From NCBI GenBank assembly GCA_963714855.1, contig CAVQPT010000009.1, forward strand, positions 31,438 through 95,437: 64,000 bases of DNA, read 5' to 3'. This DNA comes from an uncultured Bacteroidota bacterium. GTDB taxonomy: Bacteria; Bacteroidota; Ignavibacteria; UBA10030; UBA6906. Below the pieces are notes generated by a model. That model was not told where the DNA came from. It did not search any database and was given only the letters and a program-made list of their open reading frames with translations. Every line of letters starts with the position of its first letter. The stretch's first letter is position 1. Shown piece after piece: positions 952-17,188 of this stretch. A program made the position numbers and the translations under genes.

Positions 952-1003
952 TGAGTGCCTAACGTCCAGCATCGCCGGCAGCGCACAGCGCCGTCCGTTA
1001 CAG
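952..1003 (-). other. short degenerate attC-like site (GCCTAAC ... GTTACAG) downstream of the frameshifted flavodoxin-like cassette gene
   Basis: RYYYAAC motif GCCTAAC at about 952-958; internal GC-rich dyad; TAA stop of the 998..1300 ORF lies inside the GTTAC end. Confidence 0.3.
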
Positions 1004-1690
1004 GCTGTTGTTACCTGGTTGTTCACCGGACCGTTCTGGGCTTTGCTGCGGTCGATTCCGCCGCTCAAGCCCGGAGGCTTTCCGGCCCGCTCTTTCGAAC
1101 TCCGGCATGGCACTCCTCTGCAGGCGCTCGGCTAGATCGAGACAGCGGTCGACCAGGGCGCGCGCACCATCATGCAGGTCTGTGCTGTGCTTGACCATCT
1201 CAACGTTGTGTTCCATGTCCTCCGCTGTCCAGCCGCGGCTGTGAGCAATGAACGGAAACTGGCGAAATTGCATGCCCAGTTCGCCAAAGAATAGCATCAT
1301 CTGTCCTGCGACGGCCTGAATGTTGTCCTGTCCCCCCTGTCACTATGACCCCGGCAACCTTGTTGTTCAGCATGACACGGTTCTTCAGCGTGATCTGGTT
1401 CTGCACCGTGTTCAGACGCTCCGCCATCTTGAAGTACAACGAACTTGCCGAACCCCAGCGGATGGGCGTCGAAACCAGAACGACGTCCGCCCAGAATACC
1501 AGGTTCTCATACACCGCGTGCATGCCGTCAGCCGGTTCCCTCTGTGAGATGCTGCACGGCCAGGTACAAGCCTGTGCACTCTTGGAGTAGTAACCTTCGC
1601 AGGCACACGGATATTCGCAAGGGCGACGCGGACCGTGCTCATTCCGGTACTCCGCTACGGCGTCGCGCCTTGACCAGGCAGATGCGTTTC
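998..1690 (-). pseudogene. flavodoxin-like fold / NADPH-dependent FMN reductase (iron-sulfur flavoprotein-like) gene, disrupted by frameshifts
   Basis: Fragments in two frames: ...HAVYENLVFWADVVLVSTPIRWGSASSLYFKMAERLN... (1200..1523) continuing as ...GELGMQF... (998..1300). The frame change falls at a C7 run near 1305-1315. The upstream in-frame region has a Cys-rich stretch but no start codon. Confidence 0.45.
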
Positions 1691-1723
1691 ATAATAGATG
1701 ACTTTCCTGCGGCCCCGGAGCAT

Positions 1724-2110
1724 TCATTGACCTGCGGGCGGCTGCCAAAGCTCGACCTTGTTTCCCTCCGGGTCGATAACCCAGGCGAACTTTCCGTACT
1801 CAGATTCGTCGATCTTGTCCAGGACGTTGCAGCCCTCGTCCTTGAGAATCTTGACCAGCGCGTGCACGTCCTCAACTCTGTAATTGACCATGAAACTTGC
1901 CGTGCCCGGTGCAAAGGAGTCGCCCTCTGCAGGTCCGATTGACCAGATAGTCGTGCCTCCCACCGCATTGCCTTCCCCGTCCGTCCATGTGAATGCGGCA
2001 CCACCCCATTCTTGGACATCGATTCCGAGGTGACGCTTGTACCATGCCCGTAGTCCCGCGGCATCTTTGGCTTTAAAGAAGATACCGCCAATACCAGTAA
2101 CTCGCCTCAT
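1724..2110 (-). CDS. VOC family protein (glyoxalase/bleomycin-resistance-like)
   Basis: 128-aa ORF with typical VOC signature (GIGGIFFKAKD..., ...WVIDPEGNKVELWQ); GGAGAG RBS upstream of the ATG. Confidence 0.85.
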   Translation of the reverse strand: MRRVTGIGGIFFKAKDAAGLRAWYKRHLGIDVQEWGGAAFTWTDGEGNAVGGTTIWSIGPAEGDSFAPGTASFMVNYRVEDVHALVKILKDEGCNVLDKIDESEYGKFAWVIDPEGNKVELWQPPAGQ

Positions 2111-2136
2111 CGTGCTCTCCTCTCTGTAGTTCCAGG

Positions 2137-2265
2137 GCCTAGCGCCTTGCGATTACCTGCGTCGCCGAAGCAAATCATCCTTCAGTGTGATACTGTGGAC
2201 GCGAGAATCCAGGAACTGATCATTTCCAGAGCTTCGGATGCCATCGGCTCCTTGCTAGTCAATTA
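2137..2265 (-). other. degenerate attC-like remnant downstream of the hydrolase cassette gene
   Basis: The plus-strand 5' end GGGCCTAGCGCCTTGCGATTACCTGCGTCGCCGAAGCAAA resembles the conserved end of the attC family (GCCTAACGGTCGCGCCTTACCTGCGCCGCGAAACGAA); the high-coordinate end is poorly conserved. Confidence 0.25.
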
Positions 2266-3291
2266 CTCGCCGGGCAGCCCAGTCCGGCATCTCTGGAAAA
2301 CGTGGTTCAGGTCGTCCAGTTCGGCCACCATGAAGGCACTATTACCTCCCTCGCGCAACGAGCTTTCAATGGCGACAAGGTGCTCTTTCGCAGGAATCTG
2401 TACATCTTTGCTGCCGTTGATCGCGAGAACAGGGCATTGCACCCGCGTCAGCATGTCCGCCGGATTATCGTCCATCGATTCGAGGACCTGCAGCGATCGC
2501 ATAAATGCGAGATATCCATCCACATTGTCCAGGTGAAAGAGGGTCCTGGATTCTGCACCCATGAAGCTCGCGATCTCTGCAAGGAGCCTTTTTGCTTTTT
2601 CCGTCTCTGAAGCCGACATCGTTTTCCTCGTGTAGAGTGGCCACATCTCATCGTACAACTGCCTGATGCGGACGACATCTCGTTCACCGAACCCCGACGC
2701 CCGTGCGATAGCGATGCTCGATGCGCACGCGAACTCCTTACCCCAGACCCCCGGCGCCGCCATCAACACAATGAATCCCACGTCGGAGGAACGCGTCGCC
2801 ATAGCGGGCACAATCAGCCCGCCCTGGCTGATACCGAGCGCGCCAATCCGCTTGGGGTCTATTGCCTCCTGTGCCTTGAGGAAGGCGATTCCTGCCAGCG
2901 CATCATCGACGAAGTTCTCAATGTCGTACGGCTCGTACTTTCCTCCCGATTGTCCACATCCACGTTTGTCATAACGGATCGTCGCCACGCCATGACGGCT
3001 CAGGTAGTCGGCGATTGTAAAGAACAGGCGATGCTTGCCAACCTGGACGTCACGGTCGTGTGGTCCGGAGCCTGCAACGAGAACAACCGCCGGGAAAGGT
3101 CCAGAACCATTGGGCAGAGTCAGAGTGCCCGCTGGCTGAATCCCATCAATGAAGTTCCGGAAGGTGATCGCTACTTCCTTGTAAGGGGAGCTGGCATCTT
3201 GCTCGGCACAGGACAAGGCCAGTGCACAGAAAGTGACTAAGAGAAGGGCAGTGGGATGTGTCTTCGGACGGAACACGGCCACCTCATCCAA
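2263..3291 (-). CDS. alpha/beta hydrolase lipoprotein (cassette-borne)
   Basis: 342-aa ORF with lipobox LALSC, GxSxG-type hydrolase core (GISQGG); track start is TTG at 3289-3291, only 3 nt from the GTCTAAC core, so the true start is uncertain (GTG at codon 4 or 6 possible). Confidence 0.8.
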   Translation of the reverse strand: MDEVAVFRPKTHPTALLLVTFCALALSCAEQDASSPYKEVAITFRNFIDGIQPAGTLTLPNGSGPFPAVVLVAGSGPHDRDVQVGKHRLFFTIADYLSRHGVATIRYDKRGCGQSGGKYEPYDIENFVDDALAGIAFLKAQEAIDPKRIGALGISQGGLIVPAMATRSSDVGFIVLMAAPGVWGKEFACASSIAIARASGFGERDVVRIRQLYDEMWPLYTRKTMSASETEKAKRLLAEIASFMGAESRTLFHLDNVDGYLAFMRSLQVLESMDDNPADMLTRVQCPVLAINGSKDVQIPAKEHLVAIESSLREGGNSAFMVAELDDLNHVFQRCRTGLPGE

Positions 3292-3294
3292 TCT

Positions 3295-3457
3295 GTCTAA
3301 CGGCTGCGGCTCACCTGCGCCGCGAAACGAATTGGGTCTTTTGAAAACCGCAACGAACCCAAAAAGCCACTGTCAACATCTCCGCGCACCGTGTACTTTT
3401 CCTACGGTCCTTTCCGCCTCCGCACCCACCACGCGGCGTCAGGTGCAACCGTTTGAT
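3295..3457 (-). other. attC recombination site, family A (belongs to the inverted brnTA cassette)
   Basis: Plus-strand GTCTAAC (3295-3301, RYYYAAC) ... CACCTGCGCCGCGAAACG ... CGCGGCGTCAGGTGCAACCGTTTGAT (to 3457); about 85% identical to the elements at 6093-6260 and 7107-7273; lies between two genes. Confidence 0.6.
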
Positions 3458-3467
3458 GGGGGGCATG

Positions 3468-3496
3468 TTGACATTGTATACTAAGCGCCTTACAGT
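3468..3496 (+). promoter_or_regulatory. putative sigma70-type promoter for brnTA (TTGACA-17-TACAGT), would give a nearly leaderless brnT mRNA
   Basis: TTGACA at 3468-3473, TACAGT at 3491-3496, brnT ATG at 3502. Confidence 0.3.
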
Positions 3497-3501
3497 GTCT
3501 T

Positions 3502-3780
3502 ATGGATATCACCTGGGATCCGCACAAGGAACGCAGGCTGCGCAAGGAGCGGGGAATTGAATTCCGCGGGGTCCCTGATTTGATCAGCGACCGTAAGTAT
3601 ATTGCCATCCTGCAGAATCCAAGTCGACCGTCTCAGTTTATCTTCATCCTTCCCTACCACGGCTACACCCATGTGGTACCATTTATCATAGGCAAAGATG
3701 AAACGATTGTGCTAAAGAGCGTATTTCCCAGTCGAAAGTTCCATCAACTCTATGGAAAGACTAATGAAGACGAAGCTTGA
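3502..3780 (+). CDS. brnT: BrnT family toxin (DUF497, RelE-like ribonuclease)
   Basis: MDITWDPHKERRLRKERGIEFRGVPDLIS... matches the BrnT/DUF497 N-terminal signature; overlaps the downstream antitoxin gene. Confidence 0.8.
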   Translation: MDITWDPHKERRLRKERGIEFRGVPDLISDRKYIAILQNPSRPSQFIFILPYHGYTHVVPFIIGKDETIVLKSVFPSRKFHQLYGKTNEDEA

Positions 3781-4018
3781 TGCCGCCGAACTGAGTATCG
3801 AACGCTCTGCTGGCTCCTATCGCCCCGTCTCGTCAAAGGACAGGAAGCACATTGAGGTCATTCTGACCCGCTCGCGCAAAAGCAGGAGCATCACTATTCG
3901 TATTTCTGAACCCACTCTGGCAGAGCTCAAGCAACGTGCTGAACGTGAGGGGCTACCCTATCGAGACCCTCGTCTCGAGCATTCTTCACAAGTATGTAAC
4001 CGACCGCCTCGTGGATGA
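3752..4018 (+). CDS. brnA: BrnA antitoxin (CopG/RHH-like), frameshifted near the 3' end; the conserved C-terminus ...TLVSSILHKYVTDRLVDEEA is encoded in the +1 frame up to about 4064
   Basis: ...ITIRISEPTLAELKQRAEREGLPY then in-frame junk RDPRLEHSSQVCNRPPRG*; the +1 frame from about 3963 reads ETLVSSILHKYVTDRLVDEEAVTKSLRFLRSAE*, which is the canonical BrnA tail. Confidence 0.7.
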   Translation: MERLMKTKLDAAELSIERSAGSYRPVSSKDRKHIEVILTRSRKSRSITIRISEPTLAELKQRAEREGLPYRDPRLEHSSQVCNRPPRG

Positions 4019-4099
4019 GGAGGCAGTCACCAAGTCTCTTCGTTTCCTTCGTTCAGCTGAGTAGTCCCGCGCGCGCTTGTCCACCGCATTACAGTCGTG

Positions 4100-4185
4100 C
4101 CCAATTGATCATGCCCACTCACGGCCGGTTTCAGCGGCGTTGCGGAGCGCAGCGAAGCAGCGACCGCTGCAACCCGTTGTTAGGT
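4100..4185 (-). other. attC-like site of the ADH cassette (divergent sequence type)
   Basis: GTTAGGT core at 4179-4185 overlapping the ADH TAA stop (ACCTAAC on the coding strand); imperfect dyad CAGCGGCGTTGCG...CGCAGCGACCGCTG; low-coordinate boundary not resolved. Confidence 0.35.
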
Positions 4186-5169
4186 TTTGTTACTATGTTC
4201 CACAGTTATTACTACATTTCCTTTCTTGTGCCCTTTTTCAACATAGCTATGGGCCTCGGCAATTCGTTCCAACGGATAGCGTCTATCCATGACCGATTTT
4301 ATCTTTCCCGCCTCAATAAGCCCTTTGAGCTCTTTGAGGAAGACTAGACGCTCTGGAACGGGTCGAAGGCCTGTGGCCGAAAATACGACTTTTTTGTTGC
4401 CAATTTTTGAAGTCCATAGCATTTGGCACATAATTGCAAACGTAGGGGCAGTAGAAAGATAGACACCTTTTTGCGTCAGCGAGCCTTTACAGCGTGAAAA
4501 TGAGCTCTTGCCTACCGTATCAAAAATGGCATCATAGGTCTGGCCGGTTTTGGTAAAATCCTCTTTAGTGTAATTAATTACCTTATCCGCACCAAGAGAT
4601 TTCACCAATTCTAGATTCGTGGTACTGCATACCCCGGTAACTTCCGCCCCAAAGTACTTGGCAAGCTGTACCGCAGAAGTGCCTACCGATCCAGAAGCGC
4701 CATTGATAAGAACTTTTTGCCCGCTCTGAATATTTGCCTTGTCTCTAAGGAAATTCCATGCTGTTAATGCCCCATCACAGACGGGGGCGGCTTCCTCATA
4801 GGTCATATTCGCCGGTTTTATTGCCACCACTCCTTCTTCGGGCAGACATATGTACTCGGCATAAGCTCCAAAATTAATCTCGGTAGATCCAAACACTTGG
4901 TCGCCTTCTTTAAATAGCTTTGCATCTTTGCCTACTGCTTCAATCTCACCGGCTAGCTCAACCCCAAGTATAGGGTTCTTTGGTCTTATGAGACCAGTGA
5001 AAAATCTTGAAATAAATGGGTCACCCTTTCGATTAGCACAGTCACTTGGTGTTGCTGTTGTCGCATATATTTTTATCAGTACTTCGTTGTTCCTGACAGT
5101 AGGTTTTTCTACCTCTTTGAACTGAAGAACATGAGGTGATCCGTATTCTGTGTATACAATCGCTTTCAG
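4180..5169 (-). CDS. zinc-binding MDR-family alcohol dehydrogenase / quinone oxidoreductase, apparent CTG start
   Basis: Track ORF 4180..4896 starts at an internal GTG. The same frame continues upstream as (L)[37 protein letters not shown]... (GroES-like N-domain) with no ATG/GTG/TTG. An AGGAGA Shine-Dalgarno lies 6 nt upstream of CTG at 5167-5169. Low GC (~42%). Confidence 0.75.
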
Positions 5170-5247
5170 GAGTTATCTCCTAATCTGGTTTTGTTTGTTG
5201 TCCATTATTGGAATAGTATACAACAATACATCCTGCAAGCCTGCAAA

Positions 5248-6092: not shown

Positions 6093-6260
6093 ACCTAACG
6101 GCCCCTCTTCACCTGCGGCGTGAAACGAATTGGGCCTTTTGAAAACCCTCAACGAGTACCCAAGAAGCACCTTGTAACACCACCCCGTCCCTGCACTGTG
6201 CCTCCGGGCCTTTCCACCTCCGCTCCTGCTCGCGGCGTCAAGTGCAGCCGCTGGTTAGCG
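6093..6260 (-). other. attC recombination site, family A (orphan; no intact ORF between it and the next attC remnant)
   Basis: ACCTAAC (6093-6099) ... CACCTGCGGCGTGAAACGAATTGGGCCTTTTGAAAACC ... CGCGGCGTCAAGTGCAGCCGCTGGTTAGCG (GTTAGCG 6254-6260). Confidence 0.55.
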
Positions 6261-6399
6261 TCTCCACCACACCTTCGGCGCGGTTCTTTCCGATACTCGG
6301 CTCATTTTGCACAGGAATCAAGTCGTTCATTGTCAACAGGTTACAATGAGCTGCTTGGGAGGCAGCAACCCGCCGTGAGCCGGTTGGGGAACAACATTC

Positions 6400-6477
6400 T
6401 TGTCCACACCTCCATTTACCGCCGCGAAACTGCAGAAGAGTGCAGGGCCTGACCCCGCCGACCGATTCATTCTCTCA
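6400..6477 (-). other. partial/degenerate attC remnant immediately downstream of the 6475..7071 gene
   Basis: CACCTCCATTTACCGCCGCGAAACTGCAG resembles the conserved CACCTGCGCCGCGAAACG arm; the other arm is missing. Confidence 0.25.
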
Positions 6478-7071: not shown

Positions 7072-7106
7072 GGCACCTCATTAATGGGGTGAGTCAGTGC
7101 ATTGCT

Positions 7107-7273
7107 GCCTAACGGCTGCGGCTCACCTGCGCCGCGAAACGAATTGTGTCTTGTGAAAACCCGAAAAGGGTACCGCAAAAAACCACTGTCAATACGTCCG
7201 CGCATCGTGTACTGTGCCTAAGGTCCATTCAGCCTCTGCACCCGCCTCGCGGAGTCAGGTGCAGACGTTTTTT
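7107..7273 (-). other. attC recombination site, family A
   Basis: GCCTAAC (7107-7113) GGCTGCGGCTCACCTGCGCCGCGAAACGAATTGTG ... CGCGGAGTCAGGTGCAGACGTTTTTTT (to about 7273); the MepA-like gene stops at 7283. Confidence 0.6.
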
Positions 7274-9412: not shown

Positions 9413-10134
9413 ATGCCACCACCAAAACTCCTCGACCAAGTCCGTACTACCGCCGCCCTCCGACACCTCAGCCCCCGAACTATAGAAGCATATGTCCAGT
9501 GGATCAAATGATTCGTTCTCTTTCATGACAAACGACACCCACTCGAAATGGGCGCACCAGAAATCCATACGTTCCTCTCGCACCTCGCACAAGCCCTCAA
9601 CGTCTCGGCGTCGACCCAAAATCAAGCCCTCAATGCGCTTGCATTCCTCTACCACCAAGTCCTCAAACGTACGCTTGGCGAACTCGGAAACCTCCCCCGC
9701 ACCAAGCGGCAAAAACGCCTCCCCGTTGTCTTTTCCCCGGCTGAGGCGCGACAGGTTCTCTCCTGCCTCACCGGCGTCGAAAACCTCATGGCATCCCTCC
9801 CTACGGGTCAGGCCTCCGCCTCACAGAATGCATCTCGCTTCGCGTAAAAGACATCGATCTCGACAAACACCTGATCCTTGTCAGACAGGCTAAGGGAGAA
9901 AAGGATCGAGTCACAATGCTCCCCCACAGTATCTTGCCAAGCCTCTTCCGTCAGCTCGAAACCGTCAGGGAAATCCACCACCGCGATATGCTCGATCAAT
10001 ACGCCGGCGCTACATTCCGGGAATCTCTCGAACGAAAGTACCCCAATGGACCACGAGAGCTCGCCTGGCAATACCTGTTCCCCGTCCTCACCAAAGGTGG
10101 CCTGGCTGTCCGAAGCCCGCTGGATGAACCGTGA
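9413..10134 (+). pseudogene. intI: integron integrase intI remnant: in-frame TGA, frameshift, and internal deletion of the catalytic region
   Basis: MPPPKLLDQVRTTAALRHLSPRTIEAYVQWIK*FVLFHDKRHPLEMGAPEIHTFLSHLAQALNVSASTQNQALNALAFLYHQVLK...RLPVVFSPAEARQVLSCLTGVENLMAS / frameshift / PPYGSGLRLTECISLRVKDIDLDKHLILVRQAKGEKDRVTMLPHSILPSLFRQLETVREIHHRDMLDQYAGATFRESLERKYPNGPRELAWQYLFPV-LTKGGLAVRSPLDEP*. This aligns with IntI1, including the IntI-specific ALERKYP segment. About 85 aa carrying box II and the catalytic Tyr are missing. Confidence 0.8.
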
Positions 10135-10659
10135 GTAGCAGTGGTTGTGATACATGGAGGTTCCCCCCGGGAAAGGTCTGTACCACCCGCCGGTCAAAGT
10201 TCGACGCCTGACTGTTGCAGAAATATAGAGATGATTCAGCGGCTTGTCAAGACCACCACCCGGGAAGCCCTGGCAGAGAAGAACTGACAACCAGATGCAC
10301 CTTCGCACTCCTCCTGTATATCGCCGTCAAGATTCTTCTGACAACTCCGACCTGTGCTTGCTGCTGCAATTTGCCTTTGCGTTTCTCCCCCATTCCAAGT
10401 ATCTTGCTGCGTAACGATCGTGTTCGCAAGGAGCCCCCGGTTCTTCCGTGTATCATGTCCCTCGAGCCCTTCAAGTCCGGCAAACTCATCGCCGAACTGT
10501 AGAGGGAACCCGGCCTCACCCATGTCATCACGCTGGCATCCAACGAGAACCCGCCCGGGGTAACCCCGCATATACAGACGCCCCCGGCGGGGACATGCTC
10601 CCGAAGAACGAAGGACTCTTGTGATCGGACGCCCGATCCTCTCATCGAAGGAAGAGATC

Positions 10660-12540
10660 ATGATGCTAAGAAGTGTCTCGCGGATCACAGCGCCACTGTA
10701 TGTTCTGTGTCTGTTGTTCCCGCTTTCCGTTGTGGCAGAAGACAATAATCAAGGAGCCATGAGAATGGATTCGAAGCAGAAGGTGATCTTTACCTGTCCT
10801 ACCAACAGTATGGAGGAGTTCCGTCGATTGGCCAGGCAGGCGGCCGAATTGGGTGCCACCCACGTGGCGATCAGCGACCTGCCGAAAAGCCGATGGCAGT
10901 GGGAACTGGACCTGAACGATCCGTATCCCACCTGGGGGATGCTCGTCACATCGATATTCAAAGTGGTGGTGCCCGAGGAATTGAAGCCATTCATTCCTGC
11001 CGACTATGCGAAGAAGAATCTGCAGATCGTAAAGGAACGATGCGTCATACTGAAAGAGTTGGGATTGAAAGCAGCGTTCTTTGGCAAAGAGCCGGCGTGG
11101 CTGCCGGAAGCGGTGTATCAAGCTCATCCGGAATGGCGCGGTCCACGCTGCGAGCATCCGCGACGCGCACGGCATACCTATTATGCACCCTGTATCGACC
11201 GGCCGGAAGTGCTGGCCATGTATCGCAAGGCGGTGGCGGAGTTGTGTCGCCAGGCACCCATCGAGGTTTTTTCCTTGTTGACTAACGATTCCGGTGGCGG
11301 CATCTGCTGGAGCGTCAGCCTCTATCCCGGCCAGAACGGACCGTCATGGTGCGAGAAACGATCCTATGCCGACCGTGTCGTCGGATTCATATCCACCATA
11401 CAAGACGGCGCCAGGGATGCTGGCCTGCAAGCCGAGGTTTCCATGAACTATGGCTCCGGCTATATCTCGCAGGCCGAAGTGGCATCGGTGATCCCGCTGC
11501 TCAAATCCGGGCAGGCACTCAATTTCAAGACCCGGGACGAATCCGTGCCAACACGTACCATCGGCTACAATTTTTACATCAGCGGTGTCGGTCCCGTCCT
11601 GGGGATCCCCCAAGTCTTCCGGGTCGCGGAGCAGTTGCAGGACGCCTCGAGCGATCAGACGACAAACCGGACGTTCATGATGGATGAGGCCAACGCGCCG
11701 GAGTACTTCGAACTGGTGCGTCAGTTCCGCAACAACCCGGCCACAACCATGATCGGTCGTATGCAGAACATTTTGCGCACTGCGGAACATTTCGCCGGTC
11801 CCGAAGGTGCACATCACCTGATGCAGGCATGGGACAAGATTGGCCGGGCAGCGTTGATCGTACACAATCTATCCGGCGATCCGCTCATGCTCGTCGGCAC
11901 AGTCAACCAGCGCTGGATCACCCGACCACTGGTACCGTTCCCCATGGAGCTGACGCCGGAAGAGAAGGACTATTACCGCAAGTACCAGTTCCAGTCCAAC
12001 TCCGAGGAAGAAGCAGCGGACCTGATGAATCTGCAGGGATTCGAGGTGATCAACGGATTCTCCGGAACGATGATCGCTGGCACCCAGTTCACGCAGGCGA
12101 TCGCACTGCTGCAGTCGGCCATTGACGATCTCGGCAAGGTAACGAAGGCACCGGACGATCAATGGGCAGTGTTGCAGAACAGAGTGCGGACGTTGGTCTG
12201 CTTCTATCGCAACGTGCTTTACACCAGCCAGTACCAGGACATCCTGGACCGGTCGGACTATTCAAAGCCACCTGTCGAGCAGAACATCTATCCCATGGAT
12301 GGTGATCAGCTCCTGCGGGAGATTCAGATCGTTACCCGGCACGACATTGACAACACCAATGAACTGATCCGGTTACTGGAGACAAGCAGGGTGCCTCTGG
12401 TGCAAACGGCGCCGACCAAAGAGGAAGAGGAGATATTTACCCTGGGTCCGGATCTCATTGATCAATTGAAAAAGAAGGTGGCGATCACACTGAAGCATCA
12501 ACTGGAGGTGCATCGGTTGTATCACCGCCGACAGGGGTAG
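10660..12540 (+). CDS. secreted hypothetical protein (signal peptide)
   Basis: 639-aa track ORF; AAGGAAGAG RBS before ATGATG at 10660; N-terminal signal peptide MMLRSVSRITAPLYVLCLLFPLSVVA. Confidence 0.6.
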   Translation: MMLRSVSRITAPLYVLCLLFPLSVVAEDNNQGAMRMDSKQKVIFTCPTNSMEEFRRLARQAAELGATHVAISDLPKSRWQWELDLNDPYPTWGMLVTSIFKVVVPEELKPFIPADYAKKNLQIVKERCVILKELGLKAAFFGKEPAWLPEAVYQAHPEWRGPRCEHPRRARHTYYAPCIDRPEVLAMYRKAVAELCRQAPIEVFSLLTNDSGGGICWSVSLYPGQNGPSWCEKRSYADRVVGFISTIQDGARDAGLQAEVSMNYGSGYISQAEVASVIPLLKSGQALNFKTRDESVPTRTIGYNFYISGVGPVLGIPQVFRVAEQLQDASSDQTTNRTFMMDEANAPEYFELVRQFRNNPATTMIGRMQNILRTAEHFAGPEGAHHLMQAWDKIGRAALIVHNLSGDPLMLVGTVNQRWITRPLVPFPMELTPEEKDYYRKYQFQSNSEEEAADLMNLQGFEVINGFSGTMIAGTQFTQAIALLQSAIDDLGKVTKAPDDQWAVLQNRVRTLVCFYRNVLYTSQYQDILDRSDYSKPPVEQNIYPMDGDQLLREIQIVTRHDIDNTNELIRLLETSRVPLVQTAPTKEEEEIFTLGPDLIDQLKKKVAITLKHQLEVHRLYHRRQG

Positions 12541-12689: not shown

Positions 12690-12762
12690 TGCCCCCAACG
12701 AGATTCGAACTCGTGTTACAGGCTTGAAAAGCCCGTGTCCTAGGCCTCTAGACGATGGGGGC
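12690..12762 (-). tRNA. tRNA-Glu (anticodon TTC)
   Basis: Reverse complement GCCCCCATCGTCTAGAGGCCTAGGACACGGGCTTTTCAAGCCTGTAACACGAGTTCGAATCTCGTTGGGGGCA folds as a cloverleaf with GTTCGAATC T-loop; CCA not encoded. Confidence 0.85.
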
Positions 12763-12766
12763 AATG

Positions 12767-12839
12767 TGACCCCGCCGCGACTCGAACGCGGAACCTACAG
12801 CTTAGAAGGCTGTTGCTCTATCCGTTGAGCTACGGGGCC
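12767..12839 (-). tRNA. tRNA-Arg (anticodon TCT)
   Basis: Reverse complement GGCCCCGTAGCTCAACGGATAGAGCAACAGCCTTCTAAGCTGTAGGTTCCGCGTTCGAGTCGCGGCGGGGTCA; 4-nt spacer from tRNA-Glu. Confidence 0.85.
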
Positions 12840-13015
12840 ATCCTACTGTTCTCTCCCGCTGAAACCGGCCGGGATGATACTGCGGGGTATCCTTGAAACA
12901 ACAATCCAAGACGATGAATATACCAAAAAAGTCAAAATCTTGCAACCTGACAACAAGAAAGGGAACGGCACCACGGTTGTCGTCCATGGTGCCGTCGTTT
13001 GCTATCAATACCGTG

Positions 13016-13089
13016 TCGGGGCGACAGGATTTGAACCTGCGACTTCTTGCTCCCAAAGCAAGCGCTCTGCCGGGCTGAGCTACGCCCCG
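13016..13089 (-). tRNA. tRNA-Pro (anticodon TGG)
   Basis: Reverse complement CGGGGCGTAGCTCAGCCCGGCAGAGCGCTTGCTTTGGGAGCAAGAAGTCGCAGGTTCAAATCCTGTCGCCCCGA. Confidence 0.85.
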
Positions 13090-13838: not shown

Positions 13839-15440
13839 CTACCGCACCAGCACCATCCGCTTCGTCTCTGCAAATCCGCCCGCTTCGAGCCGGTAGAAAT
13901 ACACCCCGCTCGACAATCCCGAAGCGTTGAAACCGACCCGATACTGCCCCGGCGGCATCTGCCCGTCCACCAGCGTCGCCACCTCCTTCCCCGTCACATC
14001 AAAGACCTTCAACAGCACCATGCCGCCGCCACGGCTTCCGTTTCCCGACACTGCGATCCTGTACCCGATCTGTGTTTCACCGTTAAAGGGATTCGGATAG
14101 TTCTGCTCCAGCGCGAAGGTCTGCGGTAACGGCTCTTCGTCTACCGCCAGGATGGCATCCGGCCTGATAATCGGTAATGGTGAGGGCTGACCCGGAAGGA
14201 CCGATTGCAGCTGACCCATCGTCGCCCCGAACCAGTCGCGCAGGATCCCCGCATACACCGCACGGAAATCAAACTGCATGGGAATGTTGTCGCCGGTCGT
14301 CGCCGCAGAAGGTAAAACGGGATTCGACCCGAGAACACCGCCGTTGACAGCCGCCCCAAACACAAAGAGCGGCGCTGCAGCTCCATGGTCCGTCCCTGTG
14401 CTGGCGTTCGATTTGATCCTCCTCCCGAACTCCGAAAACGTCATGCCGATGACCCGCTGCTCCTGGCCGAGCAGCTTCATGTCGTCCATGAACGCCGCAA
14501 TGGCGCCCGATACGCGTCCCAGAAGCGTTGCGTGCGTGCCGGTGGCCGTCGCTCCGCCCACCACCTGGGCCGAATGCGTGTCGAATCCTCCGATGTTCGC
14601 CACGTACACGCGTGTTTTCAACCCGCCCGCGATAAGCTGGGCAATAATTTTCATCTGGTCCGCAAGCGAATTGGTGCCCGCTGCCGGATACAGGGTAGAT
14701 TTGTTTGTCCCCCTTCCGGCGGCACTCTTGATCACGGTGGCGTACTGCGATGTCTGTTCCGCGACTTCCCGGACAAATGAAAGTTCGTGCCCCGCCGGTG
14801 TCGGCGGGGGAACGTCGACTCCCCCGGGGAGAAGATACGTGGCGTTCGGGTTGGTGATCGCCAGACCCATCGAGCCCGACGGGCCCTGCAATCCCGGCGT
14901 CACAACAGAGCCGATTTGAATTGCCAGTGGATCCGGCATCGCCGACGTCGGAAACGCGCCGGGGTAGCCGGGATATTCTCCGTCCAGATACCGCCCCAGC
15001 CATCCCGATGTCAGAATCTGGTTGGAATCGGATGCCGTGAGCCATATGTCGGTGGCCCGGAAATGGGAAAAGTTCGGGTTGGGATAACCCACGCTCTGGA
15101 CCACCACGATCTTCCCTTCCTGATACAATGCCTGCAGTCCAGTCATGGCCGGATGCAGCCCTGTTGCGTCCGTCAGGGGGAGGACGCTGGCCTCCGGGAT
15201 CATGATGTTCGAGCGTGCAGCTGCAAGTGCGCTGTATTGATCGCGCGGGATGACCGTGTTCAATCCGTCGTTTCCACCGTTGAGCTGAATCAGAACCAGG
15301 ACCCGGTCGGTATCTGCGGCAATGGCTGCCAGGCGATCAAGAAAGCCCGAACGCCCGTAGGCCGTAAGCGAAAATCCGCCCAACAGAAATGGAATTGTTG
15401 TGACAGGCACAGTATGTCGTAAGAACGCTCTGCGGTTCAT
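13839..15440 (-). CDS. DUF1501 domain protein with twin-arginine signal and C-terminal T9SS sorting domain
   Basis: GAGGGAG RBS 6 nt before ATG at 15438-15440 (MNRRAFLRHTVPV...); sulfatase-like DUF1501 core; C-terminus ...VFDVTGKEVATLVDG...YFYRLEAGGFAETKRMVLVR is a T9SS type-A CTD. Confidence 0.8.
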   Translation of the reverse strand: MNRRAFLRHTVPVTTIPFLLGGFSLTAYGRSGFLDRLAAIAADTDRVLVLIQLNGGNDGLNTVIPRDQYSALAAARSNIMIPEASVLPLTDATGLHPAMTGLQALYQEGKIVVVQSVGYPNPNFSHFRATDIWLTASDSNQILTSGWLGRYLDGEYPGYPGAFPTSAMPDPLAIQIGSVVTPGLQGPSGSMGLAITNPNATYLLPGGVDVPPPTPAGHELSFVREVAEQTSQYATVIKSAAGRGTNKSTLYPAAGTNSLADQMKIIAQLIAGGLKTRVYVANIGGFDTHSAQVVGGATATGTHATLLGRVSGAIAAFMDDMKLLGQEQRVIGMTFSEFGRRIKSNASTGTDHGAAAPLFVFGAAVNGGVLGSNPVLPSAATTGDNIPMQFDFRAVYAGILRDWFGATMGQLQSVLPGQPSPLPIIRPDAILAVDEEPLPQTFALEQNYPNPFNGETQIGYRIAVSGNGSRGGGMVLLKVFDVTGKEVATLVDGQMPPGQYRVGFNASGLSSGVYFYRLEAGGFAETKRMVLVR

Positions 15441-15466
15441 CGTTTTCTCCCTCACAGGTGGCTCCC

Positions 15467-17188
15467 TCACACGAGTTGAAATTCAGGCATCGACATCATG
15501 AAGGCGTACAGTGTCTGCAGCTTCGTCTTTACGCCGGTGGCTTTCTGCGCGTTGCTGGGGTCCGCACGATAGGCATTCCATTCCACGGTCCACTCGTAGT
15601 CCGGCAACCCCGGAATCAACGTCTCCTTGAGAAATGCTTTCTGGGTTGCCGTGATCGGAATCGCGAACAGGAGCCGGGCGCTCTCCTCAATAAGAACATT
15701 CGGATCGCCGGGGTTGGGCAGGTTGAGGACAAATGCGAGTGTATCGATTGCGTAGGTGAATCCCGTCGGCCTGTAGCCCGACCGGACAAGAGTATTCGAG
15801 AGGGTGGTCCGACGCGGCAACGTGTCGGAGTTGATCCAGATCTGGTAGAACTGGGGTGTCTGATAGTATGCAGGCCATCCGGCGACGTTCGGCGGCTCAC
15901 CGAGTTCCTGCTGGAGAGATGCGGCCTGCGTGACCATGTACGAATAGACTCTGTACGCTGTGACAACGTCCGGCGGGTACGGCATGCTGAAAAGCCGGGC
16001 AATCCCCGCCGTGAAATCCACCGGACTCTTGATCATGCACCCCATGCTGAGCGTGTCAAAGAAGTGCGCGCTTGTGAAGAGTGCCCGGAGCATGGGATGC
16101 ACGTCATAGTTCGACGACCGCAAGATGTTCGCCATCGGCGTGATAATGTTTGCTTCGGTCCAGTCGTCAATGACGTAGTACACAAACCAGCGGTAGATTT
16201 TCCGCGCGAGGAATTTTGCCGTCGCTTCCTGCGCAAAGATCATGTCGAGCAACGCAGTCAGCTCGCTCTCGCCGTCTGTCCCGCCGGTGATAACCGCATT
16301 TGCGTAACGCGAGGAAAATTGCTTGTTGGTCGTATCATGCCTGGATGCTGTGAAAATCCATTCCTCCGATCCCGGCATCGTCAGAGCCGCGGCATTATCC
16401 TGCCATCCTGTGAGCACGCGGGCCGCAGCCTTGACATCGGCTTCTGTATAGAAGGTATAGTCGCCCGGACCCGCCACGGGACCCTTTCCGATCGTGAACA
16501 GCTCCAGCAGCTCCCGCCCGAAATTTTCGTTGGGACTGGTCCGCGTGTTCGTATTGCCGTTCAGATAGCGGAGCATGGCGCCGTTCACGGTCATCCGCCG
16601 CGTCAGTTCCTTCCAGTTCCCGAGTGCAAAAGAACGCAGCAGAGCACCATAGCGCCAGCTGTAGCGCGGATCACCGACAACGTCCCGCTCAGTCACAAAA
16701 TGATTGTGCCAGAAGAGCACCATCTTTTCACGGATCGACACGGGCTGCCGGAGAATCATCCCCATCCACCAGGCCTTCAGCGACGACGTGCGGATGCTGG
16801 TCGGGCTGAAGGTCGAGTTCGGATCTTTGGCAAGCGCGTACACCCAGGTTTCACCGATCGGGACAAGGTCGCGACTGTCGGTGTTGAGGGGCATCGATGA
16901 CTCCGGTGGCGGCACGGCCAGGAGCATGTCGATCGCCTGTTGCATGGTCATCGTCTGCAGCATCTGAACGTCCGCCGGGTTTGGCCCAAACGTCGTCCGC
17001 CGGAGGAGGTGGAGGATCTGGTCCTTCCCCCACAAGCCGGAATAGGGCTCCAGTCCACCCGCATTATGCGGTACCGACGGGATCCGGGTATTGGCAAACG
17101 GATTGAAAAAGGAATCGCCGGTGGAGGCAGAACCGGCGAGAAGCTCCCCGGGATCGAGGAGGTTTACCACAGCGTCTCGTCTCTTCAT
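15467..17188 (-). CDS. DUF1800 domain protein
   Basis: 573-aa ORF; GAGGGTG RBS; DUF1800 is the conserved partner of DUF1501. Confidence 0.8.
   Translation of the reverse strand: MKRRDAVVNLLDPGELLAGSASTGDSFFNPFANTRIPSVPHNAGGLEPYSGLWGKDQILHLLRRTTFGPNPADVQMLQTMTMQQAIDMLLAVPPPESSMPLNTDSRDLVPIGETWVYALAKDPNSTFSPTSIRTSSLKAWWMGMILRQPVSIREKMVLFWHNHFVTERDVVGDPRYSWRYGALLRSFALGNWKELTRRMTVNGAMLRYLNGNTNTRTSPNENFGRELLELFTIGKGPVAGPGDYTFYTEADVKAAARVLTGWQDNAAALTMPGSEEWIFTASRHDTTNKQFSSRYANAVITGGTDGESELTALLDMIFAQEATAKFLARKIYRWFVYYVIDDWTEANIITPMANILRSSNYDVHPMLRALFTSAHFFDTLSMGCMIKSPVDFTAGIARLFSMPYPPDVVTAYRVYSYMVTQAASLQQELGEPPNVAGWPAYYQTPQFYQIWINSDTLPRRTTLSNTLVRSGYRPTGFTYAIDTLAFVLNLPNPGDPNVLIEESARLLFAIPITATQKAFLKETLIPGLPDYEWTVEWNAYRADPSNAQKATGVKTKLQTLYAFMMSMPEFQLV

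What the first reader, a model, noticed from the sequence alone, without database searches (positions are those of the whole stretch)
3468..4064. Inverted brnT/brnA toxin-antitoxin cassette whose antitoxin gene is frameshifted
brnT and brnA are the only array genes on the plus strand, so they are inverted relative to the cassette array. A TTGACA-17-TACAGT promoter lies just inside the cassette and would give a nearly leaderless transcript. This matches the known tendency of integron TA cassettes to carry their own promoter and stabilize large arrays. In brnA an extra G near 3963 (tatcGagaccctc, where tatcagaccctc would give ...LPYQTLVSSILHKYV) puts the conserved C-terminal BrnA motif TLVSSILHKYVTDRLVDEEA into the +1 frame. 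The annotated frame instead ends in unrelated residues. Either the antitoxin is truncated while the toxin is intact, which is unexpected to be tolerated, or this is an assembly error.
Basis: seen in the sequence. Interest (0 to 1): 0.6.

Follow-up and report, generated by a model that had tools for sequence, protein, structure and literature searches.

The report
Frameshifted antitoxin in integron toxin-antitoxin cassette
A small toxin-antitoxin gene pair sits backwards in a decaying chromosomal integron, and one extra G has cut off the DNA-binding end of its antitoxin; the change looks like a recent real mutation, and this kind of decay is ordinary.

Summary
ORFs 3502-3780 (92 aa) and 3752/3764-4018 form a toxin-first pair on the + strand, in an attC array whose other genes lie on the - strand. 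Removing G3963 restores a 99-103 aa BrnA/CopG antitoxin. It passes both Pfam thresholds and is colinear with more than 400 full-length relatives of up to 89% identity. DNA alignment to two relatives shows exactly one extra base.

The toxin is intact but misses the BrnT Pfam threshold. Its predicted fold best matches Brucella BrnT (3U97).

The TTGACA-17-TACAGT promoter lies 5 nt before the ATG. This layout, with an ACATT-N8-AATGT palindrome, is conserved in 70 relatives.

I favour a real, recent mutation (0.6) over an assembly error (0.2):
- A second assembly, from run ERR12037370, encodes the same truncated product.
- The G completes a perfect 7-bp inverted repeat, the signature of template-switch mutation.
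- The palindrome's right arm and both flanking recombination cores are also mutated.
- The integron integrase is a pseudogene, and another cassette gene is frameshifted.
- The 50-kb backbone shows no frameshifts.

The frameshift removes helix B of the ribbon-helix-helix domain and leaves the N-terminal half. How the intact toxin is tolerated is unresolved. This is a known kind of element and of modest interest.

The parts
3295..3461 (-). The TA cassette's own attC site, with its top strand on the window - strand. R' is GTTAGAC at 3301->3295. There is an L-box stem and a long variable centre. The R'' core is degenerate: + strand GATGGGG at 3455-3461 where relatives have GTTAGGG.
   Evidence: Searches show five attCs sharing 5' CTAACCAGCGgCTGCACCTGACGCCGCG and 3' TTCGTTTCGCGGCGCAGGTgAGgCGCgGCCGTTAGG. 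One search shows an 18-bp consensus stem with two unpaired bases on the 5' arm. One search gives the comparison with L001, L004, L084 and L085.
3468..3496 (+). Sigma-70-type promoter TTGACA-17-TACAGT, 5 nt upstream of the brnT ATG, which implies a leaderless mRNA.
   Evidence: One search shows 10 of 12 matches. Searches show the -35 box, the 17-nt spacer, TAnnnT and 5-6 nt to the start codon conserved in 70 distinct loci.
3471..3488 (+). Remnant of the family's conserved palindrome ACATT-N8-AATGT, inferred to be the BrnA operator. The left arm ACATT (3471-3475) is intact. The right arm reads AGCGC (3484-3488).
   Evidence: the window bases at 3485, 3486 and 3488 occur in 1%, 9% and 4% of 70 relatives, whose majority bases there are A, T and T.
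3502..3780 (+). brnT-like toxin gene, 92 aa, intact.
   Evidence: One search gives the ORF. Searches show 46 homologues of 88-92 aa. Searches show sub-threshold PF04365 hits. One search gives an AF2 pLDDT of 88.8. One search gives 3U97 BrnT as the top Foldseek hit (probability 1.00, TM 0.61/0.71). One search gives omega 0.145 against L001.
3752..4018 (+). brnA as encoded: 88 aa from ATG 3752, or 84 aa from ATG 3764. Residues 1-70 are native, followed by 18 out-of-frame residues (RDPRLEHSSQVCNRPPRG). It overlaps the brnT end by 29 or 17 nt.
   Evidence: The 84-aa product is on record as P0070.
3963..3963 (+). The extra G (+1 frameshift).
   Evidence: One search shows a single gapped column against L001 and L002.
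3961..3978 (.). Perfect 7-bp inverted repeat, TCGAGAC / GTCTCGA with a 4-nt loop, that exists only because of G3963.
   Evidence: One search identifies repeat I1. One search gives a DNA hairpin of -6.5 kcal/mol (z -4.7) with the G and -2.0 without it. One search finds 11 of 1690 possible insertions do as well.
3964..4064 (+). Displaced C-terminal part of brnA in the +1 frame (TLVSSILHKYVTDRLVDEEAVTKSLRFLRSAE, stop TAG 4062-4064). It encodes RHH helix B and a C-terminal helix.
   Evidence: One search aligns profile positions 41-78 to CopG 2CPG residues 3-40. One search counts 10 synonymous and 2 non-synonymous differences from L001, omega 0.047.
4116..4185 (-). attC of the upstream (ADH-like) cassette, forming the 5' boundary of the TA cassette. 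R'' is ACCTAAC at 4185->4179. R' is mutated to GTGAGTG (4122->4116) where relatives have GTTAGGG.
   Evidence: One search shows + strand CATGCCCACTCAC against CATGCC(C/A)CCTAAC in L004, L084, L085, L087 and L088.
9413..10090 (+). Integron integrase pseudogene, divergent from the array. It has an in-frame stop near 9509 and a frameshift near 9800. The C-terminal third, which holds the catalytic region, is not recognisable.
   Evidence: Searches give the frames and coordinates. One search gives TIGR02249 at 261 bits, E 1.3e-77, covering profile positions 1-221 of 315.

Best explanation
This is an 821-bp integron gene cassette (window 4121 down to 3301 on the - strand) carrying a type II toxin-antitoxin operon of the BrnT/BrnA kind on the strand opposite its attC.

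How the intact family works (inferred):
- A conserved sigma-70-type promoter next to the attC R'' box starts a leaderless brnT-brnA transcript, and the two ORFs overlap.
- The toxin has a BrnT/RelE-like RNase fold.
- The antitoxin neutralises the toxin with its N-terminal half.
- Its C-terminal ribbon-helix-helix (RHH) dimer represses the promoter at the ACATT-N8-AATGT palindrome.
- Because the cassette has its own promoter, it acts as an addiction module that penalises cassette loss.

What happened in this genome:
- A single G was inserted at 3963. It was most likely templated by the opposite arm of a quasi-palindrome during replication.
- The insertion shifts brnA out of frame after Tyr70, at the start of RHH helix B.
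- The product keeps the N-terminal about 45 residues, the beta-strand and helix A. It cannot form the RHH dimer or bind DNA.
- The lesion is recent and sits in a cassette and an integron that are decaying. The operator's right arm and both flanking recombination cores are mutated, intI is a pseudogene, and a neighbouring cassette gene is also frameshifted.

Shown here: the frameshift, the homology, the context and the extra lesions.

Inferred: that the mutation is real and not a consensus error, how the toxin acts, which half of BrnA neutralises it, and why the host tolerates the change. Possible reasons for tolerance are residual neutralisation by the N-terminal half, weak expression from the altered promoter, or an antitoxin paralogue elsewhere in the genome.
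For: Frameshift and identity:
- The repaired frame passes the PF12441 and PF14384 thresholds; the encoded frame does not.
- There are 426 homologues. The best 120 are nearly all 97-103 aa, and those aligned read GLPYQTL... across the junction.
- There is one extra base relative to L001 and L002.

Real rather than artefact:
- The exact 84-aa truncated product is encoded on the 109-kb NCBI/ENA contig. It is also encoded on a separately assembled 991-bp Logan contig of run ERR12037370, which corresponds to window 3305-4295.
- G3963 converts an imperfect inverted repeat into a perfect 7-bp one. Only 0.65% of possible insertions would do as well. This is the pattern of quasipalindrome template-switch mutation (PMC7202029).
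- The site is not a homopolymer.
- Backbone genes at 13-64 kb show full-length domain coverage.
- The integron region holds a dead intI and an FMN-reductase-like gene split over three frames.
- The cassette has independent lesions in its operator and in both boundary cores.

Recent:
- The displaced C-terminus shows 10 synonymous and 2 non-synonymous differences from L001, omega 0.047, with no stop codon.

Toxin:
- It is intact and full length, with 4 deviations at conserved columns against a family mean of 2.3.
- The BrnT fold is the top hit.

RHH damage:
- The profile aligns to CopG residues 3-40, and the frameshift falls at the start of helix B.

Known biology:
- Integron TA cassettes carry their own promoters and stabilise arrays (PMC13108822, PMC11023631).
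- A reverse-oriented TA promoter is described in the V. cholerae superintegron (bioRxiv 10.1101/2023.11.21.568050).
Against: - No reads could be inspected. The two assemblies may derive from the same read set, so a systematic sequencing error is not excluded.
- The otherwise pristine C-terminal coding sequence and the intact toxin are also what an artefact would produce.
- The quasipalindrome test was devised after seeing the sequence.
- Which part of BrnA neutralises BrnT was not established here, because the primary paper is not held.
- The BrnA monomer model is of low confidence (pLDDT 54).
- The toxin lacks the K16-H17 dyad reported as important in Brucella BrnT. By motif register it has E16-R17, so its activity is unverified.
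Confidence: 0.6

Rival explanations
1. Consensus, sequencing or assembly artefact. The organism carries an intact brnA, and the extra G arose during sequencing, polishing or consensus calling in a strain-variable integron region of a metagenome-assembled genome.
For: After repair, the C-terminal 33 codons have no stop codon and show omega 0.047. The toxin is intact, which makes an intact antitoxin the biologically easy state. The source is evidently a metagenomic contig, since its relatives are all MAGs.
Against: The same truncated product is encoded on an independent k-mer assembly from raw reads. The site is not a homopolymer. No frameshifts were detected in about 50 kb of backbone genes. 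The inserted base is exactly the one predicted by a replication template switch. The cassette carries other, substitution-type lesions that cannot be indel errors.
Confidence: 0.2
2. The frameshift is real and the cassette is still functional. The truncated BrnA keeps only its N-terminal neutralising half and still inactivates BrnT. It has lost autorepression, so the operon is constitutively expressed and remains an addiction module. The variant would be neutral or even selected.
For: The N-terminal 70 residues are intact, and that part is under purifying selection against L001 (omega 0.199). The toxin is intact. The -35 box, the spacing and a usable -10 box are retained. The operator's right arm is lost together with the DNA-binding domain, which fits a regulation-free state.
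Against: RHH antitoxins normally need dimerisation for stability and for the 2:2 complex reported for BrnTA (PMC5086665), and helix B is part of the dimer core. The truncated protein carries 18 foreign residues. No other truncated allele appears among the best 120 relatives, so this state is not recurrent. With intI dead and both flanking core sites mutated, there is little left for an addiction module to protect.
Confidence: 0.15
3. Programmed +1 ribosomal frameshifting or transcriptional slippage restores full-length BrnA as a regulatory device.
For: Only the fact that both halves are preserved in adjacent frames.
Against: All relatives examined at the DNA level lack the extra base and encode a single ORF. 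The site CCC UAU CGA GAC has no slippery run or in-frame stop of the kind used by known +1 sites (known +1 sites recalled from established knowledge of prfB and similar genes).
Confidence: 0.01

Closest known systems
[quoted passage not shown] 2012; PDB 3U97; Pfam PF04365 and PF14384)
   Same: The gene order is toxin first, with overlapping ORFs. The toxin is small, and its predicted fold best matches BrnT. The antitoxin has a C-terminal CopG-type RHH and passes PF14384 and PF12441 once repaired. A palindrome within its own promoter fits the autoregulation by BrnA reported for Brucella (PMC5086665, PMC10714953).
   Different: The toxin is sequence-divergent: 18 bits against a threshold of 34.5, and no sequence hit to 3U97. 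It appears to lack the K16-H17 dyad. The mRNA is probably leaderless. The operon is borne on an integron cassette. The antitoxin here is truncated by a frameshift.
Promoter-containing TA cassettes of sedentary chromosomal integrons, such as the Vibrio cholerae superintegron ('cassette loss killing', PMC13108822; PMC11023631)
   Same: It is an attC-bounded cassette encoding a TA pair with its own promoter inside an otherwise promoterless array next to intI. Its orientation is opposite to the array, as described for parDE3 (bioRxiv 10.1101/2023.11.21.568050).
   Different: The host is an uncultured bacterium, probably of the Bacteroidota/Ignavibacteriota group, judged from its relatives and not from a direct test. 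The attCs are long, 130-170 nt. The integrase is a pseudogene, the array is short and decaying, and the flanking core sites are mutated, so the stabilising role is probably obsolete here.
Quasipalindrome-associated template-switch mutations (PMC7202029)
   Same: A single-base change makes an imperfect inverted repeat perfect, and it produces a frameshift.
   Different: The event is inferred from one natural allele compared with relatives, not observed in a reporter assay.

Membership tests
BrnT toxin (Pfam PF04365 / DUF497) | Sequence match to the family HMM at or above the gathering score | tested here: not met
   The score is 18 bits, E 0.0036, against a cutoff of 34.5. Of 44 relatives, 27 give sub-threshold hits and 11 hit DUF4258 instead. 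The profile finds no PDB sequence.
BrnT toxin (Pfam PF04365 / DUF497) | BrnT/RelE-like fold (four-stranded antiparallel sheet packed on short helices) | tested here: met
   The AF2 model has pLDDT 88.8. The Foldseek top hit is 3U97, with E 1.3e-3, probability 1.00, TM 0.61/0.71 and rmsd 2.8 A over 78 columns. The next hits are RelE, HigB and ParE toxins.
BrnT toxin (Pfam PF04365 / DUF497) | Catalytic or toxicity residues of B. abortus BrnT (D6, E7, K9, K16, H17, R41, R72, E78 as cited in PMC5086665 and PMC13284704) | tested here: inconclusive
   By motif register, W5-D6-x-x-K9 and R42 are invariant or nearly invariant in the family. Position 7 is P, and positions 16-17 are E-R instead of K-H. 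No residue-level alignment to 3U97 was obtainable.
BrnT toxin (Pfam PF04365 / DUF497) | Ribonuclease activity and growth inhibition neutralised by the cognate antitoxin | not testable with these tools
   This needs expression assays.
BrnA / CopG-type antitoxin (PF14384, PF12441) | HMM match at or above the gathering score | tested here: met
   This is met only after removing G3963: PF12441 30.1 against 28 and PF14384 26.8 against 26.1. The as-encoded product scores 21.2 and 13.3, below threshold.
BrnA / CopG-type antitoxin (PF14384, PF12441) | Complete ribbon-helix-helix DNA-binding domain (strand, helix A, helix B) | tested here: not met
   The family profile aligns positions 41-78 to CopG 2CPG residues 3-40. 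The encoded protein leaves the frame at the first residue of helix B, and RHH_1 matches only profile positions 2-23 of 39.
BrnA / CopG-type antitoxin (PF14384, PF12441) | Encoded immediately downstream of, and overlapping, the toxin gene | tested here: met
   The overlap is 17-29 nt. The same arrangement is seen in L001, L002, L004, L005, L084 and L085.
Integron gene cassette | Bounded by attC sites with inverted core sites (R'' RYYYAAC / R' GTTRRRY), an imperfect L-box stem with extrahelical bases and a variable centre | tested here: met
   Five attCs of one family plus a short one all have the same polarity. The consensus stem has 18 bp with two unpaired bases on the 5' arm. The two cores that delimit the TA cassette are degenerate, GTGAGTG and GATGGGG.
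Integron gene cassette | Array adjacent to a divergently oriented integron integrase | tested here: met
   TIGR02249 scores 261 bits on the + strand at 9413-10090. The gene is a pseudogene.
Integron gene cassette | Competence for IntI-mediated excision or integration | not testable with these tools
   The sequence suggests impairment: the R' GTT is changed to GTG, R'' is mutated and intI is dead.
Promoter-bearing TA cassette (addiction module of chromosomal integrons) | Own promoter inside the cassette, independent of Pc | tested here: met
   There is a consensus match. The -35 box, the spacing, the -10 box and the distance to the start codon are conserved in 70 loci. Promoter activity was not measured.
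Programmed ribosomal frameshift site | Frameshift conserved among relatives, with a slippery or stall motif | tested here: not met
   Relatives encode one uninterrupted ORF. There is no slippery motif at 3955-3970.
Quasipalindrome template-switch mutation | The mutation increases complementarity between the arms of a pre-existing imperfect inverted repeat | tested here: met
   A 4-bp stem plus a bulge becomes a perfect 7-bp stem. The hairpin free energy goes from -2.0 to -6.5 kcal/mol. The insertion ranks in the top 0.65% of all possible insertions.

The most novel reading that the evidence does not exclude
The truncated BrnA is a working 'neutraliser-only' antitoxin. Loss of its RHH domain and of the operator's right arm has left a constitutively expressed, unregulated, leaderless TA module. 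Its flanking recombination sites are also disabled, so the addiction cassette is locked in place. More broadly, this BrnTA-like lineage would be a cross-phylum, integron-disseminated TA cassette whose promoter and operator are built directly against the attC R'' box.
Probability: 0.12. Interest if true: 0.45.

Novelty: new member of a known kind. Interest (0 to 1): 0.27.

Why it matters
If the frameshift is real, this is a natural example of an integron addiction module caught just after losing its antitoxin's DNA-binding domain while the toxin gene is still intact. It would be a useful test of which half of BrnA neutralises the toxin, and of how TA cassettes decay once the integrase is dead.

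The family-level findings may help people annotating integron cassettes in uncultured Bacteroidota, Ignavibacteriota and related phyla. These are the conserved leaderless promoter, the ACATT-N8-AATGT palindrome and the reverse orientation next to attC.

None of this changes current understanding. TA cassettes with their own promoters in chromosomal integrons, and pseudogenised TA genes, are both well known.

Tried and rejected
- A strict regular-expression search for RYYYAAC...GTTRRRY pairs found nothing. The attCs were instead found by reading the intergenic regions and by motif search.
- Rfam found only three tRNAs.
- Profile and single-sequence searches of the toxin against PDB sequences found nothing relevant.
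- The metagenome-contig scan returned only two loci.
- Several JGI and Logan contigs, including the Logan contig carrying the truncated allele, came back without DNA. The promoter and the G could therefore not be checked at nucleotide level in the second assembly.
- The primary BrnTA paper is not held.
- The run accession appears in no held paper.
- The repaired BrnA could not be submitted for structure prediction. The closest intact relative gave a low-confidence monomer model (pLDDT 54), which I used only as a rough guide to secondary structure.
- The toxin might have been inactivated by missense changes (E23G, A25P). It is not an outlier, with 4 deviations against a mean of 2.3 and a range up to 9, and residue 25 lies in the first turn of a helix, so I do not claim inactivation.
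- There is no second brnA copy in the window.
- The whole cassette is not inverted, because its attC has the same polarity as the others.
Full report
**1. What is in the sequence**

On the + strand there are three relevant ORFs:
- ORF 3502..3780, 92 aa.
- ORF 3752..4018, 88 aa, or 84 aa from the ATG at 3764. It overlaps the first ORF by 29 or 17 nt.
- ORF 3936..4064 in the +1 frame, which carries ...ETLVSSILHKYVTDRLVDEEAVTKSLRFLRSAE.

Deleting G3963 joins the last two into a 103-aa protein, or 99 aa from the second ATG.

**2. The frameshift is real in the record and is a single base**

- Pfam. The repaired protein passes the gathering scores of PF12441 CopG_antitoxin (30.1 against 28) and PF14384 BrnA_antitoxin (26.8 against 26.1). 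The encoded 88-aa product fails both, at 21.2 and 13.3.
- Homologues. A search of 5.8 billion proteins found 426 homologues. The best are 97-103 aa long, cover 92-100% of the repaired query and reach 89% identity. Every intact homologue aligned reads GLPYQTL(V/I)SSILHKY across the junction.
- DNA. Alignment with two intact relatives shows one gapped column, CCCTATC-AGACC against CCCTATCGAGACC, at window 3963. The relatives are L001 (ENA k141_122417) and L002 (Logan ERR4183324).
- tblastn splits the repaired protein into two HSPs in different frames.
- The only truncated relative in the hit list, P0070 (84 aa), is this locus's own product.

**3. What the two proteins are**

The antitoxin profile aligns positions 41-78 to the whole ribbon-helix-helix of CopG, 2CPG residues 3-40. 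The frameshift falls at the first residue of helix B. The encoded protein therefore keeps the N-terminal about 45 residues, the beta-strand and helix A. It loses helix B and a C-terminal helix and gains 18 foreign residues.

A monomer model of the closest intact relative has low confidence (pLDDT 54). It predicts helices at 7-17, 24-39, 49-62, 66-79 and 85-98.

The toxin is full length, like its 46 close homologues of 88-92 aa. It misses the BrnT Pfam threshold, at 18 bits against 34.5. Of 44 relatives, 27 give sub-threshold BrnT hits and 11 hit DUF4258.

Its AF2 model has pLDDT 88.8. The best PDB match is Brucella abortus BrnT, 3U97, with probability 1.00, TM 0.61/0.71 and rmsd 2.8 A. RelE, HigB and ParE toxins follow.

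- D6, K9 and R42 are invariant or nearly invariant in the family. D6, K9 and R41 are reported as important in BrnT (PMC5086665).
- By motif register, the K16-H17 dyad (PMC13284704) is E16-R17 here.
- The toxin is therefore BrnT-like in fold and operon layout, but a divergent subfamily.

**4. Context: a decaying chromosomal integron**

On the - strand there are five long (130-170 nt) attC sites of one family, at about 8150-8020, 7270-7100, 6255-6085, 5372-5245 and 3461-3295. A short attC lies at 4185-4116.

Their consensus fold is an 18-bp L-box stem with two unpaired bases on the 5' arm of the - strand. The R'' CTAAC and R' GTTAGG cores flank the stem.

From my own knowledge of attC(aadA7), extra bases on the 5' arm mark the top strand. 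That agrees with all other cassette ORFs lying on the - strand. These encode DUF1697, an FMN-reductase-like protein, a glyoxalase, an alpha/beta hydrolase, a zinc-ADH-like protein, an M74-like peptidase and several proteins of unknown function.

It also agrees with a divergent integron integrase on the + strand at 9413-10090. TIGR02249 scores 261 bits, E 1.3e-77, over profile positions 1-221 of 315. That integrase is a pseudogene. It has an in-frame stop, at least one frameshift and no recognisable catalytic C-terminus.

The TA genes are thus the only credible array genes on the + strand, but the cassette itself is not flipped. Its own attC (3295-3461) has normal polarity, and the genes are simply encoded on the bottom strand.

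Relatives show the same arrangement. The TA pair is on one strand and all neighbours are on the other in contigs of 3, 6 and 9 kb. The attC R'' box lies 8-13 nt upstream of the -35 box in L001, L004, L084 and L085.

Across 71-78 more distant genome loci the association is partial:
- GTTA occurs within 45 nt upstream of the -35 box in 26 of 71 loci, against about 12 expected by chance.
- In 17 of 57 loci all neighbours lie on the opposite strand, against 7 with all on the same strand.

**5. Promoter and operator**

TTGACA (3468-3473), 17 nt, TACAGT (3491-3496) scores 10 of 12, and the ATG follows after 5 nt.

In 70 distinct related loci the consensus is TTGACATTGTATAYnnAATGTnATATATT, followed by 5-6 nt and the start codon. 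No Shine-Dalgarno sequence fits in that space. A leaderless transcript is the natural reading, but this is inferred and not measured.

The consensus contains a palindrome, ACATT-N8-AATGT, between the -35 and -10 boxes. I infer it is the BrnA operator, because BrnA is reported to bind its own promoter (PMC5086665, PMC10714953).

- In the window the left arm is intact and the right arm reads AGCGC.
- The window bases at 3485, 3486 and 3488 occur in only 1%, 9% and 4% of relatives.
- The -10 G at 3495 occurs in 6% of relatives.

**6. Real mutation or artefact?**

Reads could not be inspected. Five lines of evidence favour a real mutation.

(a) The exact 84-aa product is encoded on the 109-kb NCBI/ENA contig. 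It is also encoded on a separately built Logan contig of run ERR12037370, whose gene coordinates map to window 3305-4295.

(b) The G is not in a homopolymer. It is exactly the base that turns an imperfect inverted repeat into a perfect one.
- The repeat is TCGAGAC 3961-3967 / GTCTCGA 3972-3978.
- The DNA hairpin is -6.5 kcal/mol (z -4.7) with the G and -2.0 without it.
- Only 11 of the 1690 possible single-base insertions in the repaired operon (0.65%) would place the new base in a stem of at least 7 bp.
- This is the known signature of quasipalindrome template-switch mutation (PMC7202029).
- The test was devised after seeing the sequence.

(c) The cassette carries further substitution-type lesions:
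- the operator's right arm;
- the R' core of the upstream attC, GTGAGTG where five relatives have GTTAGGG;
- the R'' core of its own attC, GATGGGG against GTTAGGG.

(d) The neighbourhood is decaying. intI is dead. An FMN-reductase-like cassette gene is split over three frames. The ADH-like cassette gene has no ATG, GTG or TTG start.

(e) The 50-kb backbone shows dense, full-length genes, including AIRC, HisA/F-type, MurB and PriA with complete domain coverage. The assembly is therefore not generally indel-prone.

Against this, the displaced C-terminus is pristine in the repaired frame. It has 10 synonymous and 2 non-synonymous differences from L001, omega 0.047, and no stop codon. The event is therefore either very recent or not real. 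I put a real mutation at about 0.75 in total, split as 0.6 for decay and 0.15 for still functional. An artefact gets about 0.2.

**7. Mechanism and consequence**

For the intact family (inferred):
- A leaderless brnT-brnA mRNA is made from a cassette-internal promoter.
- BrnT acts as an RNase-type translation inhibitor.
- BrnA neutralises it in a complex and represses the promoter through its RHH dimer.
- The cassette penalises its own loss, as described for integron TA cassettes (PMC13108822).

In this window the RHH cannot form, so DNA binding and probably dimerisation are lost.

The toxin looks intact. Its omega against L001 is 0.145, and it has 4 deviations at conserved columns (E23G, A25P, V62I, T73S) against a family mean of 2.3. 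That is not enough to call it inactive.

Tolerance could come from residual neutralisation by the N-terminal half, from the altered promoter, from a paralogous antitoxin outside the window (none inside), or from the event being so recent that selection has not yet acted. These cannot be separated with the tools available.

**8. Comparison and novelty**

The closest known systems are Brucella BrnTA and the promoter-bearing TA cassettes of sedentary chromosomal integrons. The latter include a reverse-oriented one, parDE3, in V. cholerae (bioRxiv 10.1101/2023.11.21.568050).

This is a new, sequence-divergent member in uncultured bacteria, whose relatives are mostly Ignavibacteriota and Bacteroidota MAGs. 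It is caught in a pseudogenised state.

Programmed frameshifting is excluded, because relatives lack the extra base.

Interest is modest. The finding is correct and well explained, and the kind of element is known.

Noticed in passing
window 9413-10090 (+): An integron integrase pseudogene. TIGR02249 scores 261 bits over profile positions 1-221 of 315. It has an in-frame stop near 9509 and a frameshift near 9800, and the catalytic C-terminal third is unrecognisable. The integron is therefore integrase-dead.
   Followed up: yes
window ~1000-1700 (-): An FMN-reductase-like cassette gene is split over three reading frames: MKRICLV... in one, ...VYENLVFWADVVLVSTPIRWG... in a second, and ...GGQDNIQAVAGQMMLFFGELGM... 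in a third. It is a second frameshifted cassette gene in the same array.
   Followed up: partly
window 4183-5172 (-): A zinc-ADH / quinone-oxidoreductase-like cassette gene with all three Pfam domains present. Its ORF begins LLKAIVY directly after a stop codon, with CTG where a start codon is expected and no upstream ATG, GTG or TTG. This may be a lost start codon. Its TAA stop lies inside the attC R'' core ACCTAAC.
   Followed up: partly
L001-L089 and window 3468-3506: Across 70 distinct loci from several phyla the TA promoter is nearly invariant: TTGACATTGTATAYnnAATGTnATATATT, then 5-6 nt, then the start codon. This implies a conserved leaderless operon with a palindromic ACATT-N8-AATGT element.
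   Followed up: partly
window 4116-4122 and 3455-3461: Both recombination core sites that delimit the TA cassette differ from the GTTAGGG seen in relatives. They read GTGAGTG and GATGGGG, including loss of the conserved GTT triplet. The cassette is probably no longer excisable.
   Followed up: partly
window 3368-3379 vs 3465-3476; also 7180-7200: The TA -35 region (ATGTTGACATTG) is a 12-nt inverted copy of a motif inside the cassette's own attC (CACTGTCAACAT). At least two of the long attCs (those at 3295-3461 and about 7100-7270) carry TTGACAGTGG on the - strand, facing the next cassette. Whether this is an attC-internal promoter was not examined.
   Followed up: no
window 6260-6475: A partial attC 3' half (GTTTCGCGGCGGTAAATGG, around 6433) lies upstream of the complete attC at 6255-6085 with no convincing gene between them. 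It may be a gene-less or truncated cassette.
   Followed up: no
window 12690-13089 (-): Three tRNA genes lie in a cluster about 2.5 kb beyond the integrase pseudogene. A 639-aa secreted protein with no Pfam hit (10621-12540, +) lies between them.
   Followed up: no
window 13839-15470 (-): The C-terminus of this 543-aa protein reads like a type IX secretion sorting domain (...NYPNPFNGETQI...GVYFYRLEAGGF...). This suggests a host in the Bacteroidota/Ignavibacteriota group. I judged it by eye only.
   Followed up: no
window 2105-2270 (-): A degenerate attC remnant lies between the hydrolase and glyoxalase genes. Its 3' end, TTCGGCGACGCAGGTAATCGCAAGGCGCTAGGCC, has R' GCTAGGC instead of GTTAGGC. 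No attC is recognisable further left, so the distal array appears more decayed.
   Followed up: no
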